The notes: generated by a model from the sequence alone, not told the origin. 58,092 nt of DNA from a virus (IMGVR_UViG_3300042924_003258:1-58092), one strand, 5' to 3'; positions 4,927-51,806 are shown, numbered from the stretch's first letter. A program made the numbers and translations.

Positions 4927-5378
4927 GCCGCACACTCCTGTCTTACGCCAATCGCTGCCTTGCACTTCGCAACGGCTTCGATAACATCTTGCTCACCCGC
5001 GTCAATCCTGGCTTGACACGTTTCGGTCAGGTACTCCAGTCCTCTATTGCTGCGCCACATACACGCGGCAATCTCGGATGCCGAAGGCTTTGAGGTCATC
5101 TTCGCAAGGCAGTACGCCGTGACCATCCTCGCGAATGCGATAGATTGCTGGCGGTCCTTGCCAAGTATCAACTCGACGTGTACGCCAAGAGCCTTGGCGC
5201 ACGCATTCCTAGCGGCGTCTAGTGATGATGTGGGTGAGCTAAACATATCTCGCCAAGTTTGCTCAAACGCCACAATGCGAATATCTCGCTCTTGTTGTGC
5301 CGCGTTGTCCCAGAAGTCAGGCCCTTCAACGCGATCCGTGAACATCTTGCAGAATTTTTCAGTCAACGCCAGCATCAT
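4923..5378 (-). CDS. DnaA C-terminal (domain IV)-like HTH protein, allele A
   Basis: ACAKALGVHVELILGKDRQQSIAFARMVTAY...SASEIA pattern. Confidence 0.7.
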   Translation of the reverse strand: MMLALTEKFCKMFTDRVEGPDFWDNAAQQERDIRIVAFEQTWRDMFSSPTSSLDAARNACAKALGVHVELILGKDRQQSIAFARMVTAYCLAKMTSKPSASEIAACMWRSNRGLEYLTETCQARIDAGEQDVIEAVAKCKAAIGVRQECAA

Positions 5379-6691
5379 TCTTCCTCCACAACCATCCCAA
5401 ACTCATTGGTTCGCAGCGTCATGCTGTCAAAGAAAAGACCGATCTTCCTTCCGGCCCCCTTGCCTCGCCTTGCCTTCTTCACGGTTAGTACGCGGTTACA
5501 TTCAGTCTTGAACGATCCGTCGTCACCCAGAAGCGTCAATGTCTCCGGCTCCATCGCCGTCAGCCACAGCACCGTGTCAACATGCCGCTTCCACGCCGCG
5601 CCGCCCGCCATCTCTTTGGCGTGGTCGCCCATCTTGGGGTGAATGACAACGATCAGGCTCGCGCCGTGCTTGCTCACCGCCGAGCGAAGGTCGCCCAGCA
5701 GTTCCTTGTCCGCGATCCACGGCTTGTCGCTGGGTGCAGCACTGGTGATCGGGTCCACCAGTAGCACGCGAACCCCGGCCTGAGCCTGCGAGTGGACCCA
5801 TGCGGCAACCTGGTCGTACGTCGCCTCACCCTCCGCAATTTCGTGGCAGCAGGTGCCGAACTCAGAAAGCCATTCGGCGTTGTCGGCCTGAATCTTGCGG
5901 ACCCGATCAGCGTTGCGGCGTACCCATTCAGGATCGTCCAGTTGGCTTTCGCCGACCCGCATGGCCAGCATCCGAAGCAGGTGCATAGCCCGGCCCGATT
6001 CCAGTTGCAGCATGGCGACCGATTCGCCCGCGTTGTGCATGTTCATCAGGGCTTCCGCCGCGATCATGGACTTGCCAGCCCCGGGGTCGCCGCAGAGCAT
6101 CGTGATTGTGCCGGGTTGCAGGGCGTTGGTCGTGAAGTGAATGGCGTTGAACCCAGCCCACTTGACCGACCGGACGCCCCCGGCAATCGCCGCGTCGAGC
6201 GTGGCGTTGACTTCCTGCGCCGCCGATCCCTTGCCCGACAACCGGGACGCCAGATGCCGGGACACGCGGGCGACCTTGTTGGCGAACTTGTCGATGAACT
6301 CCTGCGTGTCGGCGGTCCATTCGCCCTTCTTGGCCGCGTGGTCGATCTGGCGGGCTTCCATGACCACCGCACGGGCGGCTGCCGCCAGAAGCACTAGGCG
6401 GGCGTAATAGGCAAAATTCGTCGGGGAGGGTACCGACCCCGCCATCTGCTCCCACAAATCGATCAGAGAGGCATCCACGGCCAGCAGACGCGAAGCCAGC
6501 AGCGCGCCGTCAGCGCGCTCGCCGTATTCCCGATATCCGCTGGCAAGAATCCCAAACATCGTCGCGTGCCTTTCGTCGTGGAAACTCTTCTCCGTCAGAA
6601 CCGCCATCACTTCCGGGATGCACTTGGGGTCCAGGGCCATGCTGCCCAGCACCGCCATCTCTGCCGACAGGTCTTGCGGTACTTCATCCAC
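5375..6691 (-). CDS. dnaB: DnaB-like replicative helicase
   Basis: N-terminal PQDLSAEMAVLGSM; Walker A GDPGAGKS; Walker B VLLVD; follows the initiator gene. Confidence 0.85.
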   Translation of the reverse strand: MDEVPQDLSAEMAVLGSMALDPKCIPEVMAVLTEKSFHDERHATMFGILASGYREYGERADGALLASRLLAVDASLIDLWEQMAGSVPSPTNFAYYARLVLLAAAARAVVMEARQIDHAAKKGEWTADTQEFIDKFANKVARVSRHLASRLSGKGSAAQEVNATLDAAIAGGVRSVKWAGFNAIHFTTNALQPGTITMLCGDPGAGKSMIAAEALMNMHNAGESVAMLQLESGRAMHLLRMLAMRVGESQLDDPEWVRRNADRVRKIQADNAEWLSEFGTCCHEIAEGEATYDQVAAWVHSQAQAGVRVLLVDPITSAAPSDKPWIADKELLGDLRSAVSKHGASLIVVIHPKMGDHAKEMAGGAAWKRHVDTVLWLTAMEPETLTLLGDDGSFKTECNRVLTVKKARRGKGAGRKIGLFFDSMTLRTNEFGMVVEEE

Positions 6692-7568
6692 TGCCCACCC
6701 CCATCGCCCTGTCCTTGGCGCGTTCCCGCCGCAGGTACGCCGAGAACTCTTCCCGCTCCTGCTGCGTCATGGGTGGTGGCTTGGGTGTGTCGTCGTCGTC
6801 GTCCGAAACGAGCGGGGTTTCCCACCGGGACTGGTTCAGGTACGTTTCCGCGTTGGGCACGAACTGCTGGCCCTGCTTCTGCCACTGCTCGGATTGGGAC
6901 ATGGCCCGGACGTGGCCGATGATCTTGTCTGCCAGCACGTCCAGTTTGCGGGCGCGCCACTTGTCTTCGCACTTGGACTTAGCGATTCGCTTTGGCTTGG
7001 GGTACGCCTGCCAGAAGTCTTCAAACCGAACCGCCTCACCACCCACAGCCCGACGCGGCTTCCGCGTCGCGGCGGGTGTTTTGTCCTCTACTCTCCTATC
7101 CTCTCCTATCCTCTCCTCTCCTAAGTCACTTGACGGGCAGTAGGCAGTCACTTGACCGTCACTAGGCGGGCACCCGACCGTCACTTGACCGTCACCTGAC
7201 GGGCAGTTGACCGTCACCTGACCGTCACTTTCAACCAGCCACCCCTCTTTTTGAAGCAATATCCACGCTTGTATGGCGTGTTCGATTGGCAACCCAAACG
7301 TCCGCGAGTACCGCTCGGGACCGAACGGGCCTCGGTCGTCGCGCAAAACCCCGTCCCGAAGTTGCCGTTTGCCGCGCCGGGCCATCCACTGAACCAGCAC
7401 ACCGAACACGCCAAACGCGATGGTGCCTTCGGGTGTGCGAGTCAAACACAGGAACGCCTCACCTGCCTTGGTGGGCCAGTTGACGTATCGGGGATGGTCG
7501 AGCGTCCGCGTTCGGTTGTTCTCGAACGTCTCGTTCCAGTCCTTGATCTTGTAAAGCGTTTCAGCCAT
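6684..7568 (-). CDS. phage replication initiator (lambda O-like) with internal iterons
   Basis: YKIKDWNETFEN N-terminus; 11-aa repeats; C-terminal FEDFWQAYPK...VPNAETYLNQSRW. Confidence 0.85.
   Translation of the reverse strand: MAETLYKIKDWNETFENNRTRTLDHPRYVNWPTKAGEAFLCLTRTPEGTIAFGVFGVLVQWMARRGKRQLRDGVLRDDRGPFGPERYSRTFGLPIEHAIQAWILLQKEGWLVESDGQVTVNCPSGDGQVTVGCPPSDGQVTAYCPSSDLGEERIGEDRRVEDKTPAATRKPRRAVGGEAVRFEDFWQAYPKPKRIAKSKCEDKWRARKLDVLADKIIGHVRAMSQSEQWQKQGQQFVPNAETYLNQSRWETPLVSDDDDDTPKPPPMTQQEREEFSAYLRRERAKDRAMGVGSG
7125..7228. repeat. Iteron array, probable replication origin
   Basis: GTCACYTGACCGTCAC at 7147, 7180 and 7213 (33-bp period); GTCAC recurs at 11/22-bp spacing; adjacent CTCTCCTATC repeats at 7091-7120. 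Confidence 0.8.
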
Positions 7569-7627
7569 GCTCGCGTCCCTGCGACCTGTAAACATCCCAA
7601 AACCTTTCACTTGCTTTCAGAAGCGGT

Positions 7628-7795
7628 CTACTCGATCTTCCTGACAACGTTGCCCTGCTCGTAGTATCCGAGTTTGGCAAGTTCCTGAACGTGATTCCGC
7701 AGGTTCCAAATTGAGAACCCGATCATCCCGAACAAGCCAACGAAGAACACGATGAACGCCGCCGCTACCCACTTGCTGTCGCTGTCCTTTTCCAT
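7628..7795 (-). CDS. small membrane protein
   Basis: One hydrophobic helix, WVAAAFIVFFVGLFGMIGFSIW; GGAG RBS. Confidence 0.6.
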   Translation of the reverse strand: MEKDSDSKWVAAAFIVFFVGLFGMIGFSIWNLRNHVQELAKLGYYEQGNVVRKIE

Positions 7796-7868
7796 GCTGC
7801 ACTCCTGCGGCCAAGCCGCGAATCCAATCCCCACCCTCCGCGTCTCCACGGAGGGGGGACCACACCAA

Positions 7869-8309
7869 CTACCAGCCAATTTCGTTGGGAGCCATGGCCT
7901 GCGCCTCCTCGCCCGGCTGCTTGAACTTCTTGCCGCCAGCGGGCTTCTCGGCGGGCGCGGGGTCAAGGTCGCTGCCACCCTTGCCGCTGCCAAGGAACTG
8001 GAACGACTCAACCACAACCTTGATCTTGCTGCGCTTCTCGCCGTCCTTCTCCCACGAGTCCAGTTTCAACCGGCCATCGATGAACACCGGCTTGCCCTTC
8101 GCCAGATACTTCGCCATGATCTCAGCGGTCTTGCCCCACGCTTCGCAGTCAACGAAGGTGACTTCTTCCTTGTCCGCGCCCGCCTGGTCTTTCCACTTGC
8201 GATTGATCGCGAGGCCGATCTGGGCGACAGCCGTTCCGCTGCTGAGGTTCTTCAACTCCACGTCGCGAGTGAGATTCCCAATGAGGATGACTTTGTTGAC
8301 GTTTGCCAT
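7869..8309 (-). CDS. ssb: single-stranded DNA-binding protein
   Basis: NKVILIGNLTRDVEL...FVDCEAWGKTAE...KGKPVFIDGRL OB-fold. Confidence 0.97.
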   Translation of the reverse strand: MANVNKVILIGNLTRDVELKNLSSGTAVAQIGLAINRKWKDQAGADKEEVTFVDCEAWGKTAEIMAKYLAKGKPVFIDGRLKLDSWEKDGEKRSKIKVVVESFQFLGSGKGGSDLDPAPAEKPAGGKKFKQPGEEAQAMAPNEIGW

Positions 8310-8965
8310 TACTTTGCTTTCTCCATGAGGGGCAGGACTTCACTCAGAAACTTTGGGCCGTCGTCGTCGGGTTCCAACTCGGCGGGCTTGGGCACGGCTT
8401 CGACTGTGACCGGCTCGACCTGCGGGGCTGGCTCGTCGTCCAGTTCCTCGCGGATGCCAACGCCTTGCAGCACGTCCGCGAACGCATCCCGCAACGCCCA
8501 CGACTTCGCACGCCATTCCAGCATCCGGCGCGGGTAGGATGACCAAGTGCCCTTGCCCGCAAGCCCGGCCTTCTTCGCGTCTGCCATTGAAAACTTGCGA
8601 ACCGTGGGGTTCTTGTCGCCCTCGCGGTAGACCGTGGCGACGGATGCCATCGCGTCACCCTCGCCCGTGGTTTCAACGTCGATGCCTTGGCACTTGCCGC
8701 TGGCCCGGACCACGGCGACCAGAGCATCGCCCCAGACGGTCGGCCTGCCGTTGATGACGGCGATGCCCTGCACAGCCTGAAACGGGTTCAGCCCCAGTAC
8801 CGCGCCGTGCATGATCGCCATGGTCGCCTGCTCCGGCGTCAACTTGGTCCAGCCCGAACGGACCAGCCCGTTCGCCATGCGGCTCGCTTGTGACAGCGTG
8901 CCAATCTCGGGCTTGCCGTCGCGTAGCACGATGTCTGTCTTCTCTTGCTTGACGATTTCGCTCAC
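8309..8965 (-). CDS. RecT-like single-strand annealing protein
   Basis: GLNPFQAVQGIAVINGRPTVWGD...WSSYPRRMLEWRA..ALRDAF; located next to the exonuclease. Confidence 0.8.
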   Translation of the reverse strand: MSEIVKQEKTDIVLRDGKPEIGTLSQASRMANGLVRSGWTKLTPEQATMAIMHGAVLGLNPFQAVQGIAVINGRPTVWGDALVAVVRASGKCQGIDVETTGEGDAMASVATVYREGDKNPTVRKFSMADAKKAGLAGKGTWSSYPRRMLEWRAKSWALRDAFADVLQGVGIREELDDEPAPQVEPVTVEAVPKPAELEPDDDGPKFLSEVLPLMEKAK

Positions 8966-9789
8966 AGTTCAACCTCCATTCCGGCCACAGCCCACTTCGG
9001 CAACGCCAGCGGCCTCGGTGCGGTGTCGTAACCGGGCCACTTGCCCGCCTTCTCGCACGCGGCCACGTCCAGCAGCAGGCCGTTCAGCACATCGCCGAAG
9101 TAGTCACGCTGCTCTTTGGTCACTTGAAACACGTTGACGCCGTGGGGCGGTTCGTTCTCAACTGCGATGATCTCGACGGACTGGACCGCGATACCCGCCA
9201 TGCTGCACGCGCGTTCGTACATCGCTGCTTGCAGGGGGTAGCCGAAGTTCGCGGCGTCGCGCCCGAAGGCGTTGTCGCTGGCGTCCCGCGTGGTCTTGAT
9301 GTCCACGATGGTCGCGGCGTCGGCGAGAAGGATGATCTTGTCCAACCGGGCCTTGCACTTGATGCCGCTCGGGTCGTCCCACACGATGACCGTTTCGGTG
9401 TGCCCCGCCGTGTCACGCAGGGATCGGGCGTGCGGGTGCATGGAGATGCGCCGGGCCATGCCGCGAACCGCTTGGGCCTGCTCTTGCGAGAGGATCGAGC
9501 GGCCATCGGCCACCTTGACCAAGGCGGCGTATTCGTCCTTGCCTTGCTTGGTGCGACGATCCGGTACGTCCGCGATAAGGAACCGCACATCGAACGTCGG
9601 GCGTTCCAGCAACCAGCAATGCAACGCCTCGCCAACGAGCATCGCATCCGACTGCTCGGAGCGTTCGCCGTTCATAGCCTCGAACGCATGGGCCATGCTT
9701 CGCCGACCGTGCTTGATTGACGAGTAGTTCCACGCCTTGATCGCGGCGTACTCGTGCATGGGCATGTTGTGATACATCGCTGCTGCCAT
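8962..9789 (-). CDS. RecE/ExoVIII-like PD-(D/E)XK exonuclease (DUF3799-like)
   Basis: SDAMLVGEALHCWLLE, CKARLD, IVDIKTT, YPLQAAMY. Confidence 0.88.
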   Translation of the reverse strand: MAAAMYHNMPMHEYAAIKAWNYSSIKHGRRSMAHAFEAMNGERSEQSDAMLVGEALHCWLLERPTFDVRFLIADVPDRRTKQGKDEYAALVKVADGRSILSQEQAQAVRGMARRISMHPHARSLRDTAGHTETVIVWDDPSGIKCKARLDKIILLADAATIVDIKTTRDASDNAFGRDAANFGYPLQAAMYERACSMAGIAVQSVEIIAVENEPPHGVNVFQVTKEQRDYFGDVLNGLLLDVAACEKAGKWPGYDTAPRPLALPKWAVAGMEVEL

Positions 9790-9939
9790 AAACCCACCAG
9801 CCCCGTTCCCGAGGCTGGCGAAGTAGGGATGCTCCCAGCACCCTTCGCGCCTCTCCATCGGGCAATGGAGGTTCGGGCGGCGCGGCCCATGTAAACCCAC
9901 CCCGCGCGGCTACACGCGAGGCGGGGAGAGGAGGAGAGG

Positions 9940-10227
9940 TCAGGGGTTCTTTCCGGCAAAGACTTCGCGCATCTCTGCAAACGCTTCTCGCCTGCCTTGT
10001 TCAAGGCCATACTGGAATCCGGCCTTCCACGAATCAGCAGAGACTCGCGCGTACGACAAGGCCGTAGCAGCCAAAGACGTGCCATCCGTGGCACTCGGCG
10101 GAGGAGTCGCCGGGGCGTCCTGCCCAGCCTGAGAGAGTTTGGTTTCGGTCGCGCCAGCAGTGCGGCGTACGAAGTCCGCTTGCTCCTGCTCGATGGTCGT
10201 GTCGTCTACTTGGTGTTCAGTTGCCAT
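9940..10227 (-). CDS. hypothetical protein
   Basis: GGAGG RBS before MATEHQV. Confidence 0.55.
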   Translation of the reverse strand: MATEHQVDDTTIEQEQADFVRRTAGATETKLSQAGQDAPATPPPSATDGTSLAATALSYARVSADSWKAGFQYGLEQGRREAFAEMREVFAGKNP

Positions 10228-10376
10228 CTTGCCTCCCATCTACCACCGCATCCGCCGCATCCTGCACCGGATCGCGCGGCATGTCTCGCGACCACGCACA
10301 CCAGTCGCACAGGACCGTGCCCAACGCAACGCGCGTTGGGTCGCCACAGTCAGGGCAGTGTGTTGGGTCGTGTATC

Positions 10377-10410
10377 AAAACCCCACCGCGCCGCATCCGA
10401 CGCGGTGGAG
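10377..10410 (-). terminator. terminator-like hairpin
   Basis: CTCCACCGCG-loop-CGCGGTGGGG followed by TTTT, after the stop at 10420. Confidence 0.5.
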
Positions 10411-10419
10411 CGAGTCGCG

Positions 10420-10653
10420 CTAGTGCGCGGATGTGACGGGTGACTCGTTCAAACGCCGAATCAGCGCGTCTGCCTGACTAACCGAATACGCGGCAAGTTC
10501 AACAAAGCCGGTATCGATGTACGCCTCGTTCGCGCAGAACCCCTGCATCGCCATCGCCGCGAACAACTCGCGTTTGGTGAGGCCAGCACTTGCGTTGATT
10601 CGACTCACTGTCGCGTCTTGAAGCGGAAACGCCGGTTCATTTGCTTGGCTCAC
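10420..10653 (-). CDS. conserved small phage protein
   Basis: PAFP...GLTKRELFAAMAMQG...AY..ADAL motif. Confidence 0.75.
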   Translation of the reverse strand: MSQANEPAFPLQDATVSRINASAGLTKRELFAAMAMQGFCANEAYIDTGFVELAAYSVSQADALIRRLNESPVTSAH

Positions 10654-10859
10654 TTCGCACCTCCAAACAACACGCAGCCCCACCAACCAAGTGCGATCAT
10701 GCCCGCGTTCAACGCCGCCAGCAACAACGATGTCGCTAGCCTCCCGCCGGGTGAATCCACGGACGCGCCGGGCTTCTTCGGAAGCGAGTTCGCATAGAAC
10801 GAAAACAGCGGCCAGAAGACCAACGCAAACGCCACGAACACAAAGAAGATGGCCTTCAT
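10650..10859 (-). CDS. two-TM membrane protein
   Basis: Two hydrophobic segments; coupled start and stop. Confidence 0.6.
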   Translation of the reverse strand: MKAIFFVFVAFALVFWPLFSFYANSLPKKPGASVDSPGGRLATSLLLAALNAGMIALGWWGCVLFGGAK

Positions 10860-11248
10860 TGCCCACCCCCTGCGGCGCGGAAGGCGGAAAGGGCCGAATC
10901 AATCTTGTCTAGGTAGATTCCATAGTCGCCAGCCACCCTCGCATACTCATCGTTTGCCGCCTCCGCCAACTCCCTCGCCGCCCTCACAAACTCAGCGGGG
11001 TTGGGGATGCCTGCCAAGGCGTTGACGCAGGAGACGATGCGGGTGGCGTTGGCAAGTGCCTCGTTCGGCTTGATGCCGTCGATGTTTGTCGCGCTTTGGA
11101 ACCCGCAGACTTCGCCGCGATACTTCTCGGCGTTCAATTGAACGACGTAGCCAACCCATTCGGTACTCAGACCCCTAACAAGACAGCCGACCTGCTTGAA
11201 CTCGCCTTCTGCCAACCACGGCTCCGGCGTGTGTTTCTGCTCACTCAT
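10856..11248 (-). CDS. phage protein of the KHTPGPW...ANARxI type
   Basis: KHTPEPW and ANATRIVSCVNALAGI. Confidence 0.7.
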   Translation of the reverse strand: MSEQKHTPEPWLAEGEFKQVGCLVRGLSTEWVGYVVQLNAEKYRGEVCGFQSATNIDGIKPNEALANATRIVSCVNALAGIPNPAEFVRAARELAEAANDEYARVAGDYGIYLDKIDSALSAFRAAGGGQ

Positions 11249-11442: not shown

Positions 11443-11448
11443 GGCAAA

Positions 11449-44201: not shown

Positions 44202-44255
44202 TGGGTGTTTTCTCCAAAGCGGCGGGGGCCGAAGCCCCCAGCCGCGTCAAATTCA

Positions 44256-45419: not shown

Positions 45420-45593
45420 GTGTTGATTCCTTCTGAATCAGTGCAAGCGACACCCCGCCTGTGCCGAGGTGTCGCTACATGGCGCGTCCGTCAACCGGGT
45501 CGGCATGGCCGAGTGTCCGGTTCGTGGCGTGCTACTTTGCGGCTCGTGGGATCGCGTTCGCGTGCGTGGTACACCCACGCCTGCGACTGCACA

Positions 45594-45620
45594 AAACAAC
45601 AAGGGGCGGTTTCCCGCCCC
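45594..45620 (-). terminator. Rho-independent terminator
   Basis: GGGGCGG-GAAA-CCGCCCC followed by TTGTTGTTTT. Confidence 0.7.
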
Positions 45621-45625
45621 TCGCT

Positions 45626-45967
45626 TTACTTCTTGATGTTCTTCTCGAACGCCGCGAGTTTGGCTTTCAACTCAGCGTTCTCGGCTGCGACGGCCTCTGC
45701 CTTTGCCGCCGTCACCTTGGCGTCTGCAAGCATCTCGGTCAACTTCTTGGGCTTGCCGATTGCGGTGGCCTTCGCCATCGCACTCTGTTCGGCGTCGTGT
45801 TCGTTGTCCTTGGGGTCGCCCATGACGTACGTTTGGCCGTCTTCGGTGCGGAGTTCGACCTTGAACTCGATTGCCCCGCCCGCAACGCGGCTCATCCACA
45901 CGTACTTGTCCAGCCCGTATTCACCCAGAAAGTTCAGCAGTTTCGGTTGTTCAATCGTGGTACTCAC
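45626..45967 (-). CDS. hypothetical head-region protein
   Basis: Coupled to the scaffold gene; C-terminal coiled coil. Confidence 0.65.
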   Translation of the reverse strand: MSTTIEQPKLLNFLGEYGLDKYVWMSRVAGGAIEFKVELRTEDGQTYVMGDPKDNEHDAEQSAMAKATAIGKPKKLTEMLADAKVTAAKAEAVAAENAELKAKLAAFEKNIKK

Positions 45968-46851
45968 TTGTTCACCTTCCTGAAAAGTGCGAAGTCGCTG
46001 GCCGTCCCCTGTCCAGCGGCGATTCGCGCAGTCGCGTCCAACTTGGCCTTCCTCACTTCGTCATCACTGGCAGGCCCCGGCGCGGACCCGTTGATCGGCT
46101 TCGGACCCGTGCTTCCGCCGTACTTGCGCGTGTGGTGCTGCTGCAAGAGCAACGCCGCTGCGTCGAATGTTTCGTGGTTGCTCATCAGCCGCACGATGCG
46201 GGCGTGTTCTTCGGCTGGGACGTATGACTCCCAGTCCTTGCCGAGTTCGGCCAGCTTGTCGGCACCGCCCACGACTTCCGCCGCGCGACGTTCGTTCGCC
46301 TCAACCTTGCCAAACTCTTCCTTGAGCAACGCACGCATCGCGGGGATGCGCGTACGCGGAGGCAGGCCCTTGAAGTCATCGTGGGCCAAGGCGAGTTTGT
46401 CAACCACCGAATCGCCAAGCGCGTTGGCCTTGTGCATCCGGTACAGGTCATCGCCGCTGAAACCAGCATCCTTCAACACCTTGGCCGTATCGACCGGCTT
46501 GCTGGTGTCGGGTTCCTTCTGTTCCTCCTTTGGGAACATCGGCGTGCTGATCGGCTTGGCGTCTTCCTTGGGCTTGCCAACCAGACGCTCCGCGCTCTTG
46601 TACGCACGCTCCGCGTCGGCCACCGTCTTGAACGGCTTGCCCTCGCCGATCAGGTCGCCTTCTGCGAGCGGCACGAGGCCCTGGCTTGCGTGCAATTCAC
46701 GCAACCCTTTGACCAACTGAGCCGCCGCGTCTTCGGGCGTAGAACCCTTGAACTTGCCTGCAAGAACAACCTCCTGCACCGGCTGCTGATCTTTGGGCGC
46801 AGCATCACCCGCAGTAGCCGTAGCCACTGCCGTATTCGCATCTGCCATCAC
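45964..46851 (-). CDS. capsid scaffolding protein
   Basis: LAGKFK....L.K...EL and EVVGG motifs; position. Confidence 0.75.
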   Translation of the reverse strand: MMADANTAVATATAGDAAPKDQQPVQEVVLAGKFKGSTPEDAAAQLVKGLRELHASQGLVPLAEGDLIGEGKPFKTVADAERAYKSAERLVGKPKEDAKPISTPMFPKEEQKEPDTSKPVDTAKVLKDAGFSGDDLYRMHKANALGDSVVDKLALAHDDFKGLPPRTRIPAMRALLKEEFGKVEANERRAAEVVGGADKLAELGKDWESYVPAEEHARIVRLMSNHETFDAAALLLQQHHTRKYGGSTGPKPINGSAPGPASDDEVRKAKLDATARIAAGQGTASDFALFRKVNK

Positions 46852-46857
46852 TTACCC

Positions 46858-48441
46858 CTATTGCGGCGCGAGTTGCTGTCGAACGACAGCACCCGCTGTA
46901 CGGGCCGCTTCCCGCCCACCCTCCATCGCCGATTCCGTCTGTGCCTGCAACTGCGCCGCCGCCTGTGCTTCGGCCTGCTGCTCCTCACGAGTCTTCACCA
47001 TGCCCGGCTCGAACACGTTGTTCAGTCGCATAATCGCCGTGAACACGTTGTTCATGTTGAGCGACGCCATGACATCCGGCCCCATCTGAGAAGCCAGTTG
47101 CACAACCTCGCCAAGCCTGCGAGCCTTGATCTGCTGGACAGCCAGCGAGGTTCCCGTGAGAACCTTCGGGCTGATGTATTGCTTCCACTCGTCGGGAATC
47201 GACGGGAGCAATCGCCGAATGTCGTGCATCACAACCGCGATCTGATGCGGCTGCGTGGTCGCTTGGAACGATGACAATGCCCCGCCAAGCATCTGCTCCA
47301 ACTGGCTGCTCACGCGCTCGACCTGCAAGGCCGTCACGCGGTCCACGTTGGGGAGCGATGCTGCGATGATGCCAAGGCTCTCGGCCACCCGCTGTTCGGT
47401 CGCTGCGATAGCCGATTGCACCACGCCGGGCGAACTGCCAGGATTCGCGTACAACGCGGCAACGTCGCCCACCACCCCGCCCACCACACTCGCCCGCATC
47501 GCGTAGCCCGACGGCCACTTGAGATGTTCCGGGTCAGTGGGCGAACCGTGGTTCACAGCCCACTTGACGTTGGACACCATGCGAGCGATTTCGAGAAGCC
47601 GCAGCCCGAGTTCATCGAGGGCCGCAAGGCTTGCAAGGTGGGCAGAGAGGGGCGAAGTGCCGTAGTGGTCGCCGGAAGAGAGGCGTATAGCCGGGGCTAT
47701 ATACCGGCAAATCTTCTCGCGGCGAGCCTCTTGCAGTTGGTTGCCGTTGATCTCTTGCGTCGTGACCCATTCGCCCGTGCGGGGGTCGTACTCGCAGAGC
47801 GTGTAGAGGTCTTTCTGTCGCGTCTTGCGGGGTTGGCCCGCCAGTTCCTTGCGATTCAGCCCGACGTTCTCGATCTGCTCGTCCGTCAGCGTGAGCGGGT
47901 CAACGCACTCTTTGGTGACGTGTTCGACCGGCGAACCCTTGCAGTCGCGCTGCGTCACGAACTGGTCGAGCCGGAAGTTCTGCGTGGATTGATCGTCGTA
48001 GATCAGTTGCAGGCCCGAGCCGAACGCGAGGACCGACCGGATCAGTTGTCGCTGGCCTTCGTAGAACCCAAGCGACCCGTTCGGGCTGGTGTGTTCCATC
48101 GCCGCGAGCGTCGTCAAGTCGCGCATCGTCGCCAGCGTCCCGGCCCCCTGCTTCATCTCGGTCGGGATGGCGGGGTTGTAGAGGATGTTCGCCGACAGTG
48201 GCGTAGCAAACCACGGGAGGCCTGGCGTGTAGGCCGCGAAGAAGAATTGGCTTTCCAGCAGGTTCAGGGCTTGCGGCCCGACGCTCTGGTACTGGCGAAC
48301 GTACTGCTCCGTCGCCCGCGTTTCCTCTCGCGGCGGCAGCAACGTGTAGTCGGTGGCTCTCGCCAGCGCGCGGCAGCGGCGTAGATACACCTGCCGGTCA
48401 GCGTCGTAGTCGCTAAACCGGCCCTGAATTTGTGTTTTCAC
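46858..48441 (-). CDS. portal / head-tail connector (T7 gp8-like)
   Basis: YQSVGPQALNLL, LPWF, FVTQRDCKG, GDHYG, DRVTALQV...LEQMLGG. Confidence 0.92.
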   Translation of the reverse strand: MKTQIQGRFSDYDADRQVYLRRCRALARATDYTLLPPREETRATEQYVRQYQSVGPQALNLLESQFFFAAYTPGLPWFATPLSANILYNPAIPTEMKQGAGTLATMRDLTTLAAMEHTSPNGSLGFYEGQRQLIRSVLAFGSGLQLIYDDQSTQNFRLDQFVTQRDCKGSPVEHVTKECVDPLTLTDEQIENVGLNRKELAGQPRKTRQKDLYTLCEYDPRTGEWVTTQEINGNQLQEARREKICRYIAPAIRLSSGDHYGTSPLSAHLASLAALDELGLRLLEIARMVSNVKWAVNHGSPTDPEHLKWPSGYAMRASVVGGVVGDVAALYANPGSSPGVVQSAIAATEQRVAESLGIIAASLPNVDRVTALQVERVSSQLEQMLGGALSSFQATTQPHQIAVVMHDIRRLLPSIPDEWKQYISPKVLTGTSLAVQQIKARRLGEVVQLASQMGPDVMASLNMNNVFTAIMRLNNVFEPGMVKTREEQQAEAQAAAQLQAQTESAMEGGREAARTAGAVVRQQLAPQ

Positions 48442-48689
48442 CTTGGGAACATCTGGGTCGAAATCGTGGGCGGCGTGACCACCTGCGCGGGCAATGCGTT
48501 GCCAGCGGACGCGAGCGCGTTCTGTTGGGAGATGCCGGTCGCGGGGTCAATCGTGAGTGATTGATTCGTGCCAGCAGTGGACCTTGCGGCGGATGCCCGA
48601 CGCACCGCCCGCCTGAACACTTCTGCCGGGTCTTCCGCCCGTGGCGGTGGAGCCACTTCGGGAATGCCGGGCGGGTTGAACAGGTTCAT
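48438..48689 (-). CDS. small Pro-rich virion protein (gp7.3-like position)
   Basis: NPP..P...PPP...GTNQSLTI just before the portal. Confidence 0.55.
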   Translation of the reverse strand: MNLFNPPGIPEVAPPPRAEDPAEVFRRAVRRASAARSTAGTNQSLTIDPATGISQQNALASAGNALPAQVVTPPTISTQMFPR

Positions 48690-48919
48690 TCTTCGATTCT
48701 CTTGTACCCCTCTGGTGCGTCGGTGGCGGGCTTGGTGTCCAGAAACCAGCCGTAGCCATCCTTGACTAGCGACCGCCTCCCCAGATTGCCGAACAGCACA
48801 GCGGCGTCGTTGGGCATAGTGCGGGGATCATGTTCGGAAACGGCCCGATCAATCTCTTCCCACAGTTCCCGCCGCTTCGATTCCGATAACTCCATCCATG
48901 CTCGAAAGTTCGTGTTCAT
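48686..48919 (-). CDS. small protein (gp6.7/6.5-like position)
   Basis: AAGGA RBS; G.RSLV motif. Confidence 0.55.
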   Translation of the reverse strand: MNTNFRAWMELSESKRRELWEEIDRAVSEHDPRTMPNDAAVLFGNLGRRSLVKDGYGWFLDTKPATDAPEGYKRIEE

Positions 48920-49220
48920 GGTCCTTCACCCATCCAAAGATCAAACGCGGCGTCACCGCCCACCACGGCGCACGCATCCCATGTGCCGATAACACGCGAC
49001 GCACCGACGCGACGCACGATTCCCCACGACTGGGGGATATGTCGGGCCATGATGGTCCGATATTGGCGATGCCAGTAGGCTCGCCAATCACCCGAAGCAA
49101 GGCCGATAACCGAACCCAACGGGCGTCTGGACCGGAAAGCATTGCACAGTCGCCCCTTACGATGACGACGTGCCCGAGGTATACCCCGCCTACGGTCCCA
49201 AACCACAAAACCCTGTCCAT
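48849..49220 (-). CDS. hypothetical first late protein
   Basis: ORF after the RNAP; H...C...TP pattern only weakly suggests a permuted papain-like fold. Confidence 0.45.
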   Translation of the reverse strand: MDRVLWFGTVGGVYLGHVVIVRGDCAMLSGPDARWVRLSALLRVIGEPTGIANIGPSWPDISPSRGESCVASVRRVLSAHGMRAPWWAVTPRLIFGWVKDHEHELSSMDGVIGIEAAGTVGRD

Positions 49221-49245
49221 AACCCCATAACCTCGCTTTGGCGGC

Positions 49246-49289
49246 GCAATTGAGAATGAGTCTCAATTGCAGTTGAGAATCCAATCTCA
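49246..49289. promoter_or_regulatory. Tandem palindromes resembling Fur-family boxes
   Basis: GCAATTGAGA-atgag-TCTCAATTGC followed by TGAGA-atccaa-TCTCA. Confidence 0.55.
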
Positions 49290-51806
49290 CTAGTGGAAGG
49301 CGTACGTGCTTTCCCGGATGCTCGCCGGGTCAAAGCTCCCGAGTTCTGGGGGTTGCGGCAACTCCAACCCCGGCACCAGTTTGGACCAATACTCGTGCAG
49401 CATGGCCAGCCGGTTCACGCCTTCGTACATCCCCGCCAGTTGGTCGATGGCCTCGCGGTGCATGTACGCGACGTGCCCAGCGTGACAGTTGTATTGGTCG
49501 TGCTGGGCGAACATCTCGTACCCGCGCCGCAGCATCATGCACGCCGTTCGCATCAGGTGTTCTTGATCGAACGAGTGAACCACGTTGGGGGCGATGCCCC
49601 GAACCTGACGCCCGACCGCCACTTCGTACGAATCGAACTCGGCCTGAACGTGTGTCTCGCCCACGATGGTCTGGATGCGGCCCTTCCACTTCTTGCGGTA
49701 AGGCTGCTCGACGAGAAAGTTGACGCCGTTGATCCACGACATCGCGGTTTTCTTGTCGCCGGAATTGCACACCAGCCGGGCGCACTCCTGCATCCACTTC
49801 ATCGCCGCCGCCGGTCGCTTGGCAATGTTCTCAATCGCCTGGATGCACGCGCGGGCCAGCGTCATCGCAATGCGGTGGGTGTCGTCGCAGTCCTCCGCGC
49901 CGTCCTTGAGCATCTTCGAGTGGACCTGATAGATCGCACCCGACAGCGTGACGCCGTACGCGAACGCGAGGAACGTCTGCTTGCACACCGACCGCTTCAC
50001 CCACGGAAGAACGTCCTTGACGTAGACCGAATACTGGACCTTCTTCTTGTGCCCACGCTTGGCGTACACCCACTTGTTGACGTGGATATCGCCCGCTTCT
50101 TTCAGCAGTTTCTCGACCTCGCGTAAGCACACGGTATACAAGTCTGCCGGGGCGTCGCCCGCCGTGAGGTTCACCAGCGGCGCGAGCGTTTCGTCCCGCG
50201 TCATTGCTGCCAAGTGCTGCAAGCCGTTGGCTGTCCCGTCCCGTCCAATCGGCAGCCGGGCCAACTGCTGATCGTCGGTCAAAGCGTGGCACGCGGCAAG
50301 GAACTCCCACGGGCTGTCTGCCTTCTGCCAGAAGTCCTCGTCCAGTCCCATAGCCGCACACCGGGCAATCTCGCGGGAGTGGTCCAGCGTCCACCGCTCT
50401 CGATCCGCGAACGAAACCTTGTCCACGCCGTAGCAGTTGGCCGCCCAGATTCGAGCGGCCCTGCGGCCATGCTCGCCGGGTTCAACTGGCTTGGCGAACT
50501 GCAACATCGCCCGCGCCCACTTCTCGTTCGTGTAGTTGAGGTAGTCGCCGCGCGGGTAGACCCGGCCACGGAAGTCGCAGAACTGATCGAAGTGAAACTC
50601 GGCTTCGTCTTCGTACGCCTTGGTGATGTTCAACGCGCCCGAGAAGATTGAACGCTGACCCTTGCGGCCCTGGCTGTCTTTGTAGAGCAACGCCACGTTC
50701 CGCTTGTGGACCATGAACGCATCCTTGTCGGCCACAACTTCCGCCGACGCGCGGGGCATGTCCTCCTTCTCAAGCGGCTTCGTTGCCGGAATCTCAAGCA
50801 TGTCGCGACCGCCGCGCCACACCTCCTCGATGACCTGCATGATCGGCTTGTTGATCGAGAACTTGGTGTTGGCGATCCAGTTGATGCCCCGGTAGAACGT
50901 GGGCATGTCGTTGTCTCGCATGTGCTGGCGTTGCTTCTTCGTCGCCCGCACCACCAGCGGCTTGCGGATCGTGTACCGACCGCCCCGCTTGCGTAGGCCC
51001 CACTCAATCGGCTCAGCCACCATCGGGAGGTTCTTGGCGTGCAGGCTCGCGTCGTGTTGCAGGCACGCATGAACCATCGCCTGCAACTGGTAATCCATCC
51101 ACACCACTCGCTGCTTCTTCTCGCCGGGCCGGATGCCAATGCGGAACGCCTGAACGTCCTTGCCCTCCGGGTCGGGCTTGAACACCAGCGTCGTTGACAC
51201 CGCCCACATCAGCATCGACGCCGCGCGGAACTTGCGGTTGATGTCGCTGATAGGCCCGGCAACCTCGGGAACCTTGTCGGCCATCTTCTTGCAGGCGAGA
51301 ACCTGCTTGGGCGTGGCCTTCCGCCAGCGGCCCACGATCTTCGGGAACAACTTGAGTTCGGCGTCATCCTGCGAGCGGTCGTACTTGCGGGCCAACGCCA
51401 GCAGCATCTCGGCCTTCGTCGCCTGCCAGATCAACGCCGCCAACTTGGTTGCCGACACACCCTCGGGGTGTTGCAGCGTGGCGTTGAATGTCTCGTGAAT
51501 CGCAATCGCCGCCAGCCGCTCCGACCCGAGCATCGTGTAGCACTGGACAAACGCAACGTGGTTCAAGTCCCACGGGCTTTCGCCGTCGCCGATTGCCTTG
51601 GCCTCTCGAATGCGGCTGGCCAGTGGTTTGATCCACGGCAGGACGATGTGTGACAGGGGCGGGAGGCTTGCGGCCTGTCGCTTCTCCACCTTGTCGTACA
51701 GTTCGTCGATGCGCTCGCTCTCACCCAGCACGCGCGAACGGTTCTCAATCTCAATCTGACGCTGCATCGCGGTCCCTGCGAGCAACGGAGTCGTCGCCAC
51801 TTCCAT
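49290..51806 (-). CDS. T7-like single-subunit DNA-directed RNA polymerase
   Basis: DFRGRVY; motif A DGTANGLQH; motif B RSVCK......YG; APNVVHSFD; motif C HD; GGAGG RBS before MEVATT. Confidence 0.96.
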   Translation of the reverse strand: MEVATTPLLAGTAMQRQIEIENRSRVLGESERIDELYDKVEKRQAASLPPLSHIVLPWIKPLASRIREAKAIGDGESPWDLNHVAFVQCYTMLGSERLAAIAIHETFNATLQHPEGVSATKLAALIWQATKAEMLLALARKYDRSQDDAELKLFPKIVGRWRKATPKQVLACKKMADKVPEVAGPISDINRKFRAASMLMWAVSTTLVFKPDPEGKDVQAFRIGIRPGEKKQRVVWMDYQLQAMVHACLQHDASLHAKNLPMVAEPIEWGLRKRGGRYTIRKPLVVRATKKQRQHMRDNDMPTFYRGINWIANTKFSINKPIMQVIEEVWRGGRDMLEIPATKPLEKEDMPRASAEVVADKDAFMVHKRNVALLYKDSQGRKGQRSIFSGALNITKAYEDEAEFHFDQFCDFRGRVYPRGDYLNYTNEKWARAMLQFAKPVEPGEHGRRAARIWAANCYGVDKVSFADRERWTLDHSREIARCAAMGLDEDFWQKADSPWEFLAACHALTDDQQLARLPIGRDGTANGLQHLAAMTRDETLAPLVNLTAGDAPADLYTVCLREVEKLLKEAGDIHVNKWVYAKRGHKKKVQYSVYVKDVLPWVKRSVCKQTFLAFAYGVTLSGAIYQVHSKMLKDGAEDCDDTHRIAMTLARACIQAIENIAKRPAAAMKWMQECARLVCNSGDKKTAMSWINGVNFLVEQPYRKKWKGRIQTIVGETHVQAEFDSYEVAVGRQVRGIAPNVVHSFDQEHLMRTACMMLRRGYEMFAQHDQYNCHAGHVAYMHREAIDQLAGMYEGVNRLAMLHEYWSKLVPGLELPQPPELGSFDPASIRESTYAFH

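What the first reader, a model, noticed from the sequence alone, without database searches (positions are those of the whole stretch)
5375..51806. Hybrid phage: T7-type RNA polymerase and virion driven by a lambdoid replication/integration module, with no visible DNA polymerase
Seen: intact RNAP motifs A/B/C directly upstream of a T7-order late operon, plus integrase, Xis-like HTH, RecE/RecT-like pair, SSB, an iteron-containing initiator and a DnaB-like helicase. I recognise no PolA, primase-helicase or ligase in what looks like a full genome unit. Known: Autographiviridae normally carry their own DNA polymerase and primase-helicase, and the phiKMV group places the RNAP just before the late genes. 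Inference: a temperate lineage in which the RNAP serves only as the late-gene switch, filling the role of lambda Q.
Basis: partly seen in the sequence, partly recalled or inferred. Interest (0 to 1): 0.82.

Follow-up and report, generated by a model that had tools for sequence, protein, structure and literature searches.

The report
T7-type phage with lambdoid early genes
This lake-water phage builds a T7-style particle and carries a T7-style RNA polymerase, but it copies and integrates its DNA with lambda/P22-style genes and has no DNA polymerase of its own, a design seen again in a few other uncultured phages.

Summary
The window is one IMG/VR virus record (58,092 bp). It contains a 51,174-bp genome unit (6919-58092) plus a second, variant copy of its end (1-6918). 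HMM searches confirm a single-subunit RNAP, T7-type portal, tube A, nozzle, gp16-like protein and TerL. They also confirm integrase, RecE-like/RecT, SSB, an iteron-bearing initiator, a DnaB-family helicase and a RusA-like resolvase.

Six-frame searches for eight polymerase, primase and ligase families gave 0 hits at E<=10. The RNA_pol control was found.

A chimeric assembly is unlikely. Two independent IMG/VR records (G003, G021) show the same early-to-RNAP-to-portal synteny, and G021 (47 kb, complete) also lacks PolA, PolB and DnaB_C. In RNAP trees these records group together, outside the clade holding all PolA-bearing records and the 8 reference Autographiviridae.

The "RNAP replaces Q" reading fits the gene order (nin-like region, RusA, RNAP, late operon). 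It is not shown: no phage promoter was found.

Temperate T7-likes and DNAP-less Autographiviridae are already published. This is therefore a new variant of a known kind. Interest is moderate to high.

The parts
1..6918 (-). Second, variant copy of the end of the genome unit (nin-like block A plus DnaB-family helicase plus the start of overlap with the initiator gene). Mosaic relative to 53592-58092.
   Evidence: blastn of 1-8000 against 51000-58092 gives segments of 72-100% identity with indels. 5382-6918 equals 56556-58092 at 99.1% (also D1-D6).
6919..58092 (-). One genome unit of 51,174 bp (circular or circularly permuted map).
   Evidence: Repeat period 51174. CheckV completeness is 100% for the record.
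49290..51806 (-). Single-subunit T7-like RNA polymerase, 838 aa.
   Evidence: PF00940 1.5e-76, PF14700 4.7e-10. PDB hits: T7 RNAP 1.4e-51, yeast mtRNAP 6.5e-53. Nearest proteins are P0002 at 59% and P0003 at 44%; the rest are <=34%.
48920..49289 (-). About 370-nt gap after the RNAP gene. It holds three TCTCAAYTG half-sites at 49246-49280 and a terminator-like hairpin at 48946-48967. Candidate site of the late promoter (inference).
   Evidence: Sequence read; pattern hits; hairpin. The ORF there (48916-49290) scored poorly in the codon model.
46858..48441 (-). T7-type portal (head-tail connector).
   Evidence: PF12236 2.9e-26.
45964..46851 (-). Scaffold candidate (assigned by position only).
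   Evidence: No Pfam or PHROG hit. 28% tblastn match to the ORF after the portal in G005.
44256..45419 (-). Major capsid protein, Gp10A-like.
   Evidence: No Pfam, PHROG or phage tblastn hit. ESM Atlas features 0.97-0.98 and TM 0.64-0.69 to Gp10A-like / Phage_capsid_4 clusters.
42856..43497 (-). Tail tubular protein A.
   Evidence: PF17212 2.7e-22.
40503..41105 (-). Second, divergent tube A-like protein.
   Evidence: PF17212 1.1e-4, 22.7 bits against a cut-off of 22.3. Also matched in G021.
37540..40506 (-). Nozzle / tail tubular protein B.
   Evidence: PF25675 2.6e-67. 35% identity to G021 over 996 aa.
32275..33597 (-). Beta-helix tailspike candidate.
   Evidence: PF13229 5.9e-6.
23203..28173 (-). 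gp16-like internal virion protein, 1656 aa.
   Evidence: phrog_342 4.9e-57.
20847..22766 (-). T7-type large terminase.
   Evidence: PF22530 2.1e-16. Matches 2663 phage records, all <60% identity; the listed best are 26-30%.
20104..20862 (-). Calcineurin-like phosphoesterase after TerL.
   Evidence: PF00149 4.1e-8. 63% match at the end of G021.
17640..18850 (.). Mostly non-coding, purine-rich stretch with divergent sigma-70-like promoters. Possible control region or genome end (inference).
   Evidence: Positive AT skew. TTGAAT-17-TAGAAT at 18114-18142 on the + strand. Read by eye: TTGCTT-17-TATACT on the - strand near 18035-18007. ORFs there translate to low-complexity junk.
11822..17177 (-). 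Block of small genes plus SLT lysozyme (14648-15133) and integrase. It carries 15 of 15 sense-strand copies of CCCTCGC; several are the base of terminator-like hairpins.
   Evidence: clustering, flanking conservation. SLT PF01464 3.8e-7. The same cluster occurs in G003 and G021. Hairpin covariation: 6 of 11 pairs.
11464..12660 (-). Tyrosine integrase.
   Evidence: PF00589 4.2e-12, PF13495 1.4e-4.
11245..11477 (-). Sigma-70-like promoter (TTGACG-17-TATACT, 11477-11449) followed by a 65-aa Xis-like HTH ORF (11245-11442).
   Evidence: Promoter scan. phrog_66 'excisionase and transcriptional regulator' 2.3e-4. No Pfam hit.
8962..9900 (-). RecE-like PD-(D/E)XK exonuclease.
   Evidence: PF12684 1.3e-33.
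8309..8965 (-). RecT-family annealase.
   Evidence: PF03837 4.6e-9.
7869..8309 (-). SSB.
   Evidence: PF00436 5.8e-33.
6684..7610 (-). Replication initiator with an internal origin: 9.6 x 11-nt iterons at 7125-7230, then purine-rich 10-nt repeats at 7091-7122.
   Evidence: phrog_270 2.1e-17, phrog_9474 1.9e-16. TRF. Sequence.
5375..6691 (-). DnaB-family helicase (second copy at 56546-57865).
   Evidence: PF00772 3.4e-13, AAA_25 3.6e-7, DnaB_C 4.1e-5 (below its cut-off).
52882..53316 (-). RusA-like Holliday-junction resolvase at the end of the nin-like block.
   Evidence: phrog_244 7.1e-12. 67% identity to G003 and 33% to G021 at the same relative place. The Pfam RusA model does not hit the relatives and gave no hit for this protein.
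51821..52108 (-). DUF6378 protein directly upstream of the RNAP.
   Evidence: PF19905 1.8e-13. 59% identity to G003 at the same place.
54595..55722 (-). C5 cytosine DNA methyltransferase (variant copy at 2358-3173).
   Evidence: PF00145 5.1e-19 and 1.8e-18.

Best explanation
The window is the genome (1.13 units) of an uncultured, probably temperate podophage from lake water. It is mosaic.

Late half: T7-type. A single-subunit RNA polymerase is followed, phiKMV-style, by portal, scaffold, Gp10A-like capsid, tube A, nozzle, tail spike, internal virion proteins and T7-type terminase.

Early half: lambdoid (P22-type). Integrase, Xis-like ORF, RecE-like/RecT, SSB, an O-like initiator whose gene contains the iteron origin, a DnaB-family helicase, then a polymorphic nin-like block ending in a RusA-like resolvase.

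The phage encodes no DNA polymerase, primase or ligase. Replication must therefore be started by the phage initiator and helicase and carried out by the host primase and Pol III, as in lambda and P22 (inferred from gene content).

All these genes lie on one strand. The RNAP gene is the last gene of the long early transcription unit and sits in the slot that Q occupies in lambdoid phages. The most likely circuit has three steps:
1. Host RNAP transcribes the early unit from sigma-70-type promoters.
2. The phage RNAP appears with a delay.
3. The phage RNAP then drives the late operon from a promoter in the roughly 370-nt gap behind its own gene.

Shown: gene content, order, absence of polymerase families, recurrence of the design. 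Inferred: use of the host replisome, the late-switch role, lysogeny.
For: Absence of a replisome:
- 0 hits at E<=10 in six frames for PF00476, PF00136, PF03175, PF09250, PF13155, PF01807, PF01068 and PF07733.
- The positive control PF00940 was found.
- All non-structural ORFs without a family hit are 260 aa or shorter.

Complete unit: period 51174 and CheckV 100%.

One molecule:
- G003 has SLT, int, RecE, SSB, initiator, MTase, RusA, DUF6378, RNAP and portal in the same order (35-79% identity for the early proteins, 29-33% for RNAP and portal).
- G021 (47,231 bp, 100% complete) has int, SLT, initiator, RusA, RNAP, portal, two tube A, nozzle, gp16-like, TerL and metallophos. It has no PolA, PolB or DnaB_C.
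- Unitigs from other lake runs tile 38093-54359 across the RNAP/RusA junction with 0 differences (X2 #10 and #11, X3 #17 and #20, X7 #31).

Origin inside the initiator gene.

Sigma-70-like promoter at 11477-11449 in front of xis, recET, ssb, O and the helicase.

Genes from RusA to the RNAP overlap or abut each other. Local order RNAP, three small ORFs, portal equals phiKMV.
Against: - No phage-type promoter could be found. Neither a k-mer comparison of intergenic regions nor a scan of the RNAP-portal gap against the whole strand gave a clear repeated motif (197 hits against 84-191 in 20 shuffles).
- No RNA run holds the sequence, so timing and the transcribing polymerase are untested.
- No repressor, Cro, N or Q homologue was recognised, and no attP or host junction is known, so lysogeny is inferred only.
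- Many late proteins (726, 460, 430, 283, 208 aa and others) have no family hit.
- Sigma-70-like sites are no more frequent than in shuffles (3 found, 2.9 expected).
- The initiator is supported by PHROGs only, not by a Pfam O-protein model.
Confidence: 0.65

Rival explanations
1. Assembly chimera: a lambdoid temperate phage's early region was wrongly joined to a T7-like phage's late region in a metagenome assembly.
For: The record comes from a mixed population. Its two ends are variant copies of the same region. Logan unitigs break up and depth rises between 52.8 and 58 kb. No single listed contig spans 38-58 kb.
Against: The same junction (RusA, DUF6378, RNAP, portal) and the same early order occur in G003. 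The whole design occurs in the complete record G021. Both are different IMG/VR records with RNAPs only 29-30% identical to the window's. Unitigs from three runs overlap across 48260-54359 without differences. GC is even across the window, 0.59-0.64.
Confidence: 0.03
2. A very divergent DNA polymerase or primase is present among the unannotated proteins, so the phage is not host-dependent for synthesis.
For: About half of the proteins tested have no Pfam or PHROG hit (20 of the 40 had no Pfam hit). These include proteins of 726, 460 and 430 aa. The authors of the MPP-C paper raise the same caveat for their phages (PMC9860041, Discussion passage).
Against: Eight polymerase, primase and ligase HMMs gave nothing even at E<=10 in six frames, while the control worked. 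The large unknowns sit inside the virion operon at the gp13-gp15 and tail-fibre positions. The 430-aa protein has only weak TIM-barrel or glycosidase leads. Every unknown in the early region is 260 aa or shorter. In 12 of 13 other near-complete RNAP-bearing records PolA is found easily, at 1e-28 to 1e-49.
Confidence: 0.07
3. The RNAP is a general middle-and-late polymerase as in T7, or it serves another gene set such as the small-gene/SLT block. It would then not be a Q-like late-only switch.
For: In T7 and phiKMV the phage RNAP also transcribes DNA-metabolism genes; phiKMV has annotated phage promoters upstream of its RNAP gene. On a circular map the late operon runs on towards the SLT/small-gene block. 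That block holds an oriented conserved motif with terminator-like hairpins, which a T7-type enzyme might read through (recalled property).
Against: The replication genes lie upstream of the RNAP gene on the same strand and behind a sigma-70-like promoter. The CCCTCGC motif is conserved among phages whose RNAPs are only about 30% identical. That argues against it being an RNAP-specific promoter. Three + strand ORFs (18.8-19.6 kb) face the end of the late operon.
Confidence: 0.25
4. The phage is not truly temperate. The integrase is a remnant or serves another role (for example dimer resolution), and the phage is lytic or pseudolysogenic.
For: No repressor was found. IMG/VR classes the record as linear, not provirus. 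No tRNA or att site was found. All 24 holders are lake-water metagenomes, with no isolate genome among them.
Against: An intact 398-aa integrase matches the catalytic-domain model, with an Xis-like ORF behind it. Integrases are also present in G003, G005 and G021. A RecET, SSB, initiator and nin gene set is typical of temperate lambdoid phages (established knowledge).
Confidence: 0.15

Closest known systems
phiKMV-like Autographiviridae (Krylovirinae; record NC_005045 read)
   Same: Genes mostly on one strand. The single-subunit RNAP lies at the end of the early/middle genes. It is followed by three small ORFs and then portal, scaffold, capsid, tube A/B, internal virion proteins and terminase.
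   Different: phiKMV has its own DNA polymerase, primase, helicase-type ATPase, ligase, exonuclease and endonuclease VII upstream of the RNAP. The window has none of these. It has integrase, RecET, an O-like initiator, a DnaB-family helicase and RusA instead. RNAP identity to any of 2733 phage records is at most 28%.
Temperate T7-like phages (Rhizobium/Agrobacterium phage Pasto MT708545; LUZ100, PMC10134795, passages; Boeckman et al. 2022 Virology, not held and known only from citations)
   Same: T7-type RNAP and virion combined with a tyrosine integrase.
   Different: Pasto and LUZ100 keep the complete T7 replisome: SSB, primase/helicase, DNA polymerase, exonuclease and endonuclease, downstream of an early RNAP. 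In the window the whole replisome is replaced by a lambdoid module, and the RNAP is last before the late genes. Pasto's RNAP falls in the PolA clade; the window's does not.
DNAP-less Autographiviridae: MPP-C cyanopodoviruses (PMC9860041) and marine groups AG-1.2-1.4 and AG-11 (PMC12361551); passages read
   Same: T7-like RNAP and virion without a DNA polymerase gene. The authors propose dependence on the host polymerase. In AG-11 the replication genes lie upstream of the RNAP.
   Different: MPP-C phages keep T7-type primase/helicase, SSB and exonuclease and have small (about 37.8 kb) genomes. AG-11 is described as having a primase and a helicase. The window has no primase. It has an iteron initiator, DnaB-family helicase, RecET, RusA and a 51-kb genome. 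Figures and supplements of these papers were not seen, so overlap with AG-11 cannot be excluded.
Lambdoid early regions (lambda and P22: int-xis-recombination genes ... O/18-P/12-nin-Q; the order is recalled)
   Same: Order int, xis, exonuclease/annealase pair, SSB, initiator with the origin inside its gene, helicase gene, mosaic nin-like block with a Holliday-junction resolvase, then the late-gene activator slot. Dependence on the host polymerase.
   Different: No cI/cro/N/Q homologue was recognised. The activator slot holds an RNA polymerase. The lysis gene (SLT) is not behind that slot but upstream of int. The virion is T7-type, not a lambda siphovirus or P22-type particle. The initiator is not matched by a Pfam O-protein model.
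Xanthomonas phage Xp10
   Same: A known natural mosaic of lambdoid and T7-like modules that includes a T7-type RNAP.
   Different: Reverse combination, as recalled: a lambda-like siphovirus virion with T7-like RNAP and DNA polymerase. Here the virion and RNAP are T7-like and replication is lambdoid.

Membership tests
Autographiviridae (T7-like podophages) | Encodes a single-subunit T7-type RNA polymerase | tested here: met
   PF00940 1.5e-76; T7 RNAP 1.4e-51.
Autographiviridae (T7-like podophages) | T7-type virion and packaging module (portal, capsid, tube A, nozzle, internal virion proteins, TerL) in conserved order | tested here: met
   The scaffold, gp14/gp15 equivalents and TerS are assigned by position only.
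Autographiviridae (T7-like podophages) | Unidirectional gene arrangement | tested here: met
   All assigned genes are on the minus strand. Only three small ORFs (18.8-19.6 kb) look coding on the + strand.
Autographiviridae (T7-like podophages) | Own T7-type replisome (family A DNA polymerase, gp4-like primase-helicase). This was long treated as core but is no longer universal. | tested here: not met
   0 hits for PF00476, PF13155 and PF01807. The helicase has a DnaB N-terminal domain instead. Published exceptions exist.
Autographiviridae (T7-like podophages) | RNAP groups with those of classified members | tested here: inconclusive
   IQ-TREE quick, 51 rows. All 8 references and all 20 PolA-bearing IMG/VR records kept in this tree sit in a 30-row clade (SH-aLRT 99). 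The window sits in a sister 6-row clade (94; the sister link is 80). Only 8 references were used; the root is assumed.
Autographiviridae (T7-like podophages) | Linear genome with direct terminal repeats | not testable with these tools
   The record is a wrap-around assembly of 1.13 units. Only contigs, not raw reads, could be laid.
Lambdoid phages (lambda/P22-type early region) | int-xis and exo/annealase genes followed by initiator (origin inside the gene), helicase or loader, nin block, late activator, on one transcription unit | tested here: met
   Order shown. The activator slot is filled by the RNAP.
Lambdoid phages (lambda/P22-type early region) | cI/Cro-type immunity region and N/Q antiterminators | tested here: not met
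   No such family among the small ORFs searched.
Lambdoid phages (lambda/P22-type early region) | Initiator belongs to the lambda O / P22 gp18 family | tested here: inconclusive
   PHROG 'replication initiation protein' 2.1e-17, but no Pfam family at E<=0.01.
DNAP-less Autographiviridae (MPP-C / AG-11) | No DNA polymerase but T7-type primase/helicase retained | tested here: not met
   No Toprim or DnaG zinc ribbon. DnaB_C is below its cut-off. G021 has no DnaB_C hit.

The most novel reading that the evidence does not exclude
The window, G003, G021 and the proteins P0002 and P0003 represent an undescribed, roughly family-level assemblage of temperate podophages. In the RNAP tree this assemblage is sister or basal to the classical Autographiviridae.

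These phages keep the T7-type RNAP and virion. They run on exchangeable temperate-phage early modules and on the host replisome, with the RNAP wired into the lambdoid circuit in place of Q.

Two observations point to module swapping between lineages. Identity to G003 drops sharply exactly at the RNAP start (DUF6378 59%, RusA 67%, then RNAP 29%). All PolA-bearing RNAPs form one derived clade.

One further step is implied: the lytic T7-like phages descend from such temperate ancestors by acquiring a private replisome.
Probability: 0.3. Interest if true: 0.75.

Novelty: new variant of a known kind. Interest (0 to 1): 0.58.

Why it matters
T7-like phages are the textbook case of a self-sufficient lytic phage, with their own RNAP and replisome. 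Here the RNAP and virion are uncoupled from the replisome and combined with a complete lambdoid early programme.

The design recurs in at least two other divergent uncultured genomes. That makes it an evolutionarily stable arrangement, not a one-off recombinant.

It offers a natural system in which a single-subunit RNAP may act purely as a developmental switch, which is useful for orthogonal gene-circuit parts. It also bears on where the Autographiviridae came from: in the RNAP trees the PolA-less, temperate-type genomes fall outside the clade of all PolA-bearing ones.

It further warns that 'T7-like' hits in viromes do not imply a strictly lytic, replisome-encoding phage.

Tried and rejected
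- Close relatives by pattern scan. The RNAP as a single protein gave nothing in viral contigs or genome contigs. Alignment A1 gave nothing in viral contigs and one 29% hit in a MAG. A2 and P0003 in metagenome contigs gave nothing useful. P0003 and P0002 in viral contigs gave nothing. TerL and portal scans returned only near-identical fragments of the same population. Only the broader alignment A3 brought in useful loci.
- Host: not determined. There is no tRNA and no Rfam hit. The early region has only an 87-nt blastn match to Burkholderia phages. The helicase has only 3 weak phage hits.
- Phage promoter: no convincing repeated motif. The TCTCAAYTG half-sites behind the RNAP gene are local only (10 matches with <=2 mismatches against 5.2 expected, 3 of them in the gap).
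- My first IUPAC pattern for the C-rich motif was mis-specified and uninformative. It was replaced by regex counts.
- The + strand ORFs 17114-18139, 18230-18514 and 18519-18803 were rejected as non-coding. They give low-complexity translations, score poorly in the codon model and have no family hit.
- An integron attC reading of the repeated hairpins was considered and dropped. The 3' ends read GGGTTTC/A and do not fit the recalled GTTRRRY core, and the integrase lies downstream on the same strand.
- A Chi-like reading of the oriented motif was considered and kept only as a weak idea, because most copies sit at gene boundaries.
- RNA evidence: no RNA holder is listed among the 24 runs.
- Read laying: no listed contig spans the whole 20-kb stretch. 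The stretch from 52.4 to 58 kb is covered only by short pieces.
- The Pfam RusA model found no match in the 31 related records, although tblastn with the window's RusA-like protein did.
- Boeckman et al. 2022 is not held. Supplements of the cited papers were not available, so group AG-11's gene maps were not seen.
- Literature searches for this combination found only the MPP-C and AG papers and nothing describing a lambdoid replication module with a T7-type RNAP. This covers the held library only.

Full report
WHAT THE RECORD IS

The window is a whole IMG/VR virus record of 58,092 bp. It is classed linear, with a CheckV completeness of 100%. GC content is 0.59-0.64 throughout. No tRNA and no Rfam family was found.

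Its two ends overlap. Positions 5382-6918 equal 56556-58092 at 99.1% identity. Positions 1-5381 match 53592-56555 only in segments of 72-100% identity, with indels. For example, the DUF5131 gene at 3388-4278 is missing from the second copy.

The genome unit is therefore 51,174 bp (6919-58092). Positions 1-6918 are a second, mosaic variant of the helicase and nin-like end. This fits a circular or permuted genome assembled from a mixed population.

The sequence is held by 24 lake-water metagenome runs, 10 of them with at least half of the sampled words.

GENE CONTENT

Almost all coding potential is on the minus strand.

Late half:
- RNAP 49290-51806: PF00940 1.5e-76 and RPOL_N 4.7e-10.
- It aligns to T7 RNAP at 1.4e-51 and to yeast mitochondrial RNAP at 6.5e-53, with the catalytic Asp, Lys/Tyr and His-Asp motifs aligned (motif names are recalled).
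- Three small ORFs follow the RNAP.
- Then come the portal (PF12236 2.9e-26), a scaffold candidate, and a capsid.
- The capsid has no Pfam, PHROG or phage-database hit. It is Gp10A-like by ESM Atlas features (0.97-0.98) and structure (TM 0.64-0.69).
- Next are tube A (2.7e-22), a 430-aa unknown, a second weak tube A-like protein (1.1e-4), and the nozzle (2.6e-67).
- A beta-helix spike follows.
- Then a gp16-like 1656-aa protein (phrog_342 4.9e-57), a T7-type TerL (2.1e-16) and a metallophosphoesterase.

Early half, in transcription order:
- A block of small genes with an SLT lysozyme.
- Integrase (PF00589 4.2e-12).
- A sigma-70-like TTGACG-17-TATACT promoter.
- A 65-aa Xis-like ORF (phrog_66 2.3e-4, weak).
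- RecE-like DUF3799 (1.3e-33), RecT (4.6e-9) and SSB (5.8e-33).
- An initiator (phrog_270 2.1e-17). Its gene contains 9.6 copies of an 11-nt iteron followed by purine-rich repeats.
- A DnaB-family helicase (DnaB N-terminal domain 3.4e-13) and a DnaA_C-like HTH protein (just below its cut-off).
- A nin-like block with a C5 methyltransferase, a RusA-like resolvase (phrog_244 7.1e-12) and DUF6378. This block abuts the RNAP gene.

NO POLYMERASE

Pfam scans of 40 of the larger ORFs found no polymerase, primase or ligase. Six-frame searches of the whole record gave 0 matches even at E<=10 for these families:
- DNA_pol_A, DNA_pol_B and DNA_pol_B_2
- Prim-Pol and Toprim_2
- the DnaG zinc ribbon
- ATP-dependent ligase
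- Pol III alpha

The same procedure recovered RNA_pol at 5.2e-77.

There is also an external control. Among 31 other RNAP-bearing IMG/VR records, PolA was found in 22, and in 12 of the 13 that are at least 90% complete.

The unannotated early-region ORFs are all 260 aa or shorter. The large unknowns (726, 460 and 430 aa) lie inside the virion operon. The 430-aa protein has only weak TIM-barrel leads.

I put the chance of a hidden replicative polymerase at about 7%.

ONE MOLECULE, AND A RECURRING DESIGN

The RNAP lineage is rare:
- In 1.84 billion representative proteins only P0002 (59%) and P0003 (44%) are close. Everything else is <=34% identical.
- No isolated phage exceeds 28% identity, across 2733 matching records.

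A profile-derived scan of IMG/VR gave 80 loci. tblastn of 42 window proteins against these loci and against six fully fetched records gave the following.

G003 is a 22.6-kb fragment. It carries, in the same order:
- SLT 79%, p161 35%, integrase 36%, p130 46%, RecE-like 38%
- SSB 58%, initiator 43%, methyltransferase 49%, RusA-like 67%, DUF6378 59%
- then RNAP 29% and portal 33%

G021 (47,231 bp, 100% complete) carries integrase, SLT 59%, initiator 43%, RusA-like 33%, RNAP 30%, portal, both tube A genes, nozzle 35%, gp16-like, TerL 30% and the metallophosphoesterase. It has no PolA, PolB or DnaB_C. All 12 other near-complete records have both PolA and DnaB_C.

These independent assemblies make a chimera very unlikely. 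Logan unitigs from three other runs also overlap each other across 48260-54359 with no differences. No single contig spans the region, and the polymorphic 52.4-58 kb part is fragmented.

Identity to G003 is much higher for early proteins than for RNAP and portal, and it changes exactly at the RNAP start. This points to exchange of whole early modules between different RNAP/virion lineages.

G001, another PolA-less relative, has a PD-(D/E)XK nuclease, an AAA_24 ATPase and an SF2 helicase upstream of its RNAP. G021 also has AAA_24. Various temperate-phage-type early modules therefore occur with this kind of RNAP.

PHYLOGENY

FastTree on 159 rows:
- The rows were the window, 150 representative proteins and 8 references: T7, JSF31, phiKMV, S-CBP3, Pasto, Paku, Valrath and BL198.
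- All 8 references fell in one 16-row clade (support 96).
- The window fell in a separate 133-row clade of unnamed proteins (support 96).

IQ-TREE quick run (LG+G4) on 51 rows:
- Rows shorter than 700 aa were dropped.
- A 30-row clade (SH-aLRT 99) holds all 28 PolA-bearing or reference rows plus two fragments.
- The window, P0002, P0003, G003 (identical to P0040) and G021 form a 6-row clade (94) that is sister to it (80).
- Five more PolA-less fragments branch below.

Caveats: short searches; 8 references only; the root rests on four proteins of 1,030-1,431 aa (all at least 940 aa) that I assumed to be organellar; absence of PolA in fragments proves nothing.

HOW IT PROBABLY WORKS

Shown: the gene set and order.

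Inferred from the established lambda/P22 model:
- The initiator binds the iterons inside its own gene.
- The phage's DnaB-family helicase is loaded there.
- Host primase and Pol III do the synthesis.
- RecE-like/RecT, SSB and the RusA-like resolvase handle recombination and branch resolution.

The RNAP gene is the last gene of a same-strand early unit, reached after the nin-like block. That is the slot of Q in lambdoid phages (recalled). It also has the same local layout as phiKMV.

A roughly 370-nt gap follows the RNAP gene. It holds three TCTCAAYTG half-sites and a terminator-like hairpin, and it precedes the first late ORF.

The economical model is delayed, host-RNAP-dependent expression of the phage RNAP, which then transcribes the late operon. 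I could not find a phage promoter and there are no RNA data. The 'late switch only' claim therefore remains an inference, at about 55%.

Lysogeny is inferred from the integrase and the Xis-like ORF. No repressor was recognised.

COMPARISON WITH WHAT IS KNOWN

- Temperate T7-likes are published. Pasto and LUZ100 keep the full T7 replisome. Boeckman et al. 2022 could not be read.
- Autographiviridae without a DNA polymerase are published too. MPP-C cyanopodoviruses keep T7 primase/helicase, SSB and exonuclease (PMC9860041). Marine group AG-11 lacks DNAP, SSB, exonuclease and endonuclease, and has a primase and a helicase upstream of the RNAP (PMC12361551; figures and supplements were not seen).
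- What I did not find in print, in the held library, is a complete replacement by a lambdoid initiator/helicase/RecET/RusA/integrase programme with the RNAP in the Q slot.

I therefore rate this a new variant of a known kind, with a bolder reading: an undescribed assemblage sister or basal to Autographiviridae, at about 30%.

SIDE FINDING

All 15 minus-strand copies of CCCTCGC lie within 11822-17177, which is 9% of the window. Their flanks are conserved (C..CAMCCCTCGCS).

The same oriented cluster occurs in the homologous SLT-integrase regions of G003 (10 of 11 sense copies) and G021 (11 of 14).

I chose twelve copies because they folded as hairpins. They share one hairpin with a fixed base (CUCGC/GCGGG) followed by UUU and a variable upper stem. 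Compensatory changes occur in 6 of 11 pairs. The function of these elements is unknown.

Noticed in passing
window 11822-17177 (- strand); L102 54-3334 (+); G021 38135-43780 (-): An oriented motif, C..CAMCCCTCGCS. All 15 sense-strand copies in the window fall in a 5.4-kb block holding small genes, SLT and the integrase. The same cluster is present in the homologous regions of two phages whose RNAPs are only about 30% identical to the window's. About a third of the copies form the conserved base of terminator-like hairpins (CUCGC...GCGGG-UUU) with compensatory changes in the upper stem. Function unknown. Ideas: insulating terminators read through by the phage RNAP, RNA-processing sites, or a host-specific signal.
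   Followed up: partly
window 1-6918 vs 53592-58092: The nin-like block between the helicase and the RusA-like gene is polymorphic in the population. It shows 72-100% identity segments and indels, and a DUF5131 gene is present in one variant only. The helicase itself is 99% identical between copies. Logan unitigs fragment and depth rises there in four lake runs.
   Followed up: partly
window 17640-18850: An apparently non-coding, purine-rich stretch of about 1.2 kb (AG and GGT microrepeats, positive AT skew). It lies between divergent sigma-70-like promoters, next to three small + strand ORFs (18850-19605) that face the end of the late operon. It may be a control region, a long non-coding RNA or the neighbourhood of the genome end.
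   Followed up: no
window 42856-43497 and 40503-41105: Two tube A-like genes, separated by a 430-aa protein (weak TIM-barrel leads) and a 149-aa protein. G021 also has both. A dual tube A arrangement is described for the unrelated PhiGT1 lineage (PMC10386132, abstract and passages).
   Followed up: no
window 15563-15585 (- strand): A perfect palindrome, GTTGTCAAG-gcgta-CTTGACAAC, containing TTGACA. It lies just after one of the conserved hairpins and upstream of a 112-aa ORF and the SLT gene. It is a possible operator/promoter.
   Followed up: no
L104 (G001) 3098-12281; L100 (G021) 15672-16703: Other PolA-less RNAP podophage records carry a different temperate-type early module upstream of the RNAP. 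G001 has a PD-(D/E)XK nuclease, an AAA_24 ATPase, an SF2 helicase and an HTH_17 protein. G021 has AAA_24, HTH_39 and an HNH/NUMOD4 endonuclease.
   Followed up: partly
IMG/VR records G006-G031: In this sample of RNAP-bearing viral records, 12 of 13 that are at least 90% complete encode a tyrosine integrase. Four are classed as proviruses. Integrase-bearing T7-like genomes are therefore the rule here, not the exception.
   Followed up: no
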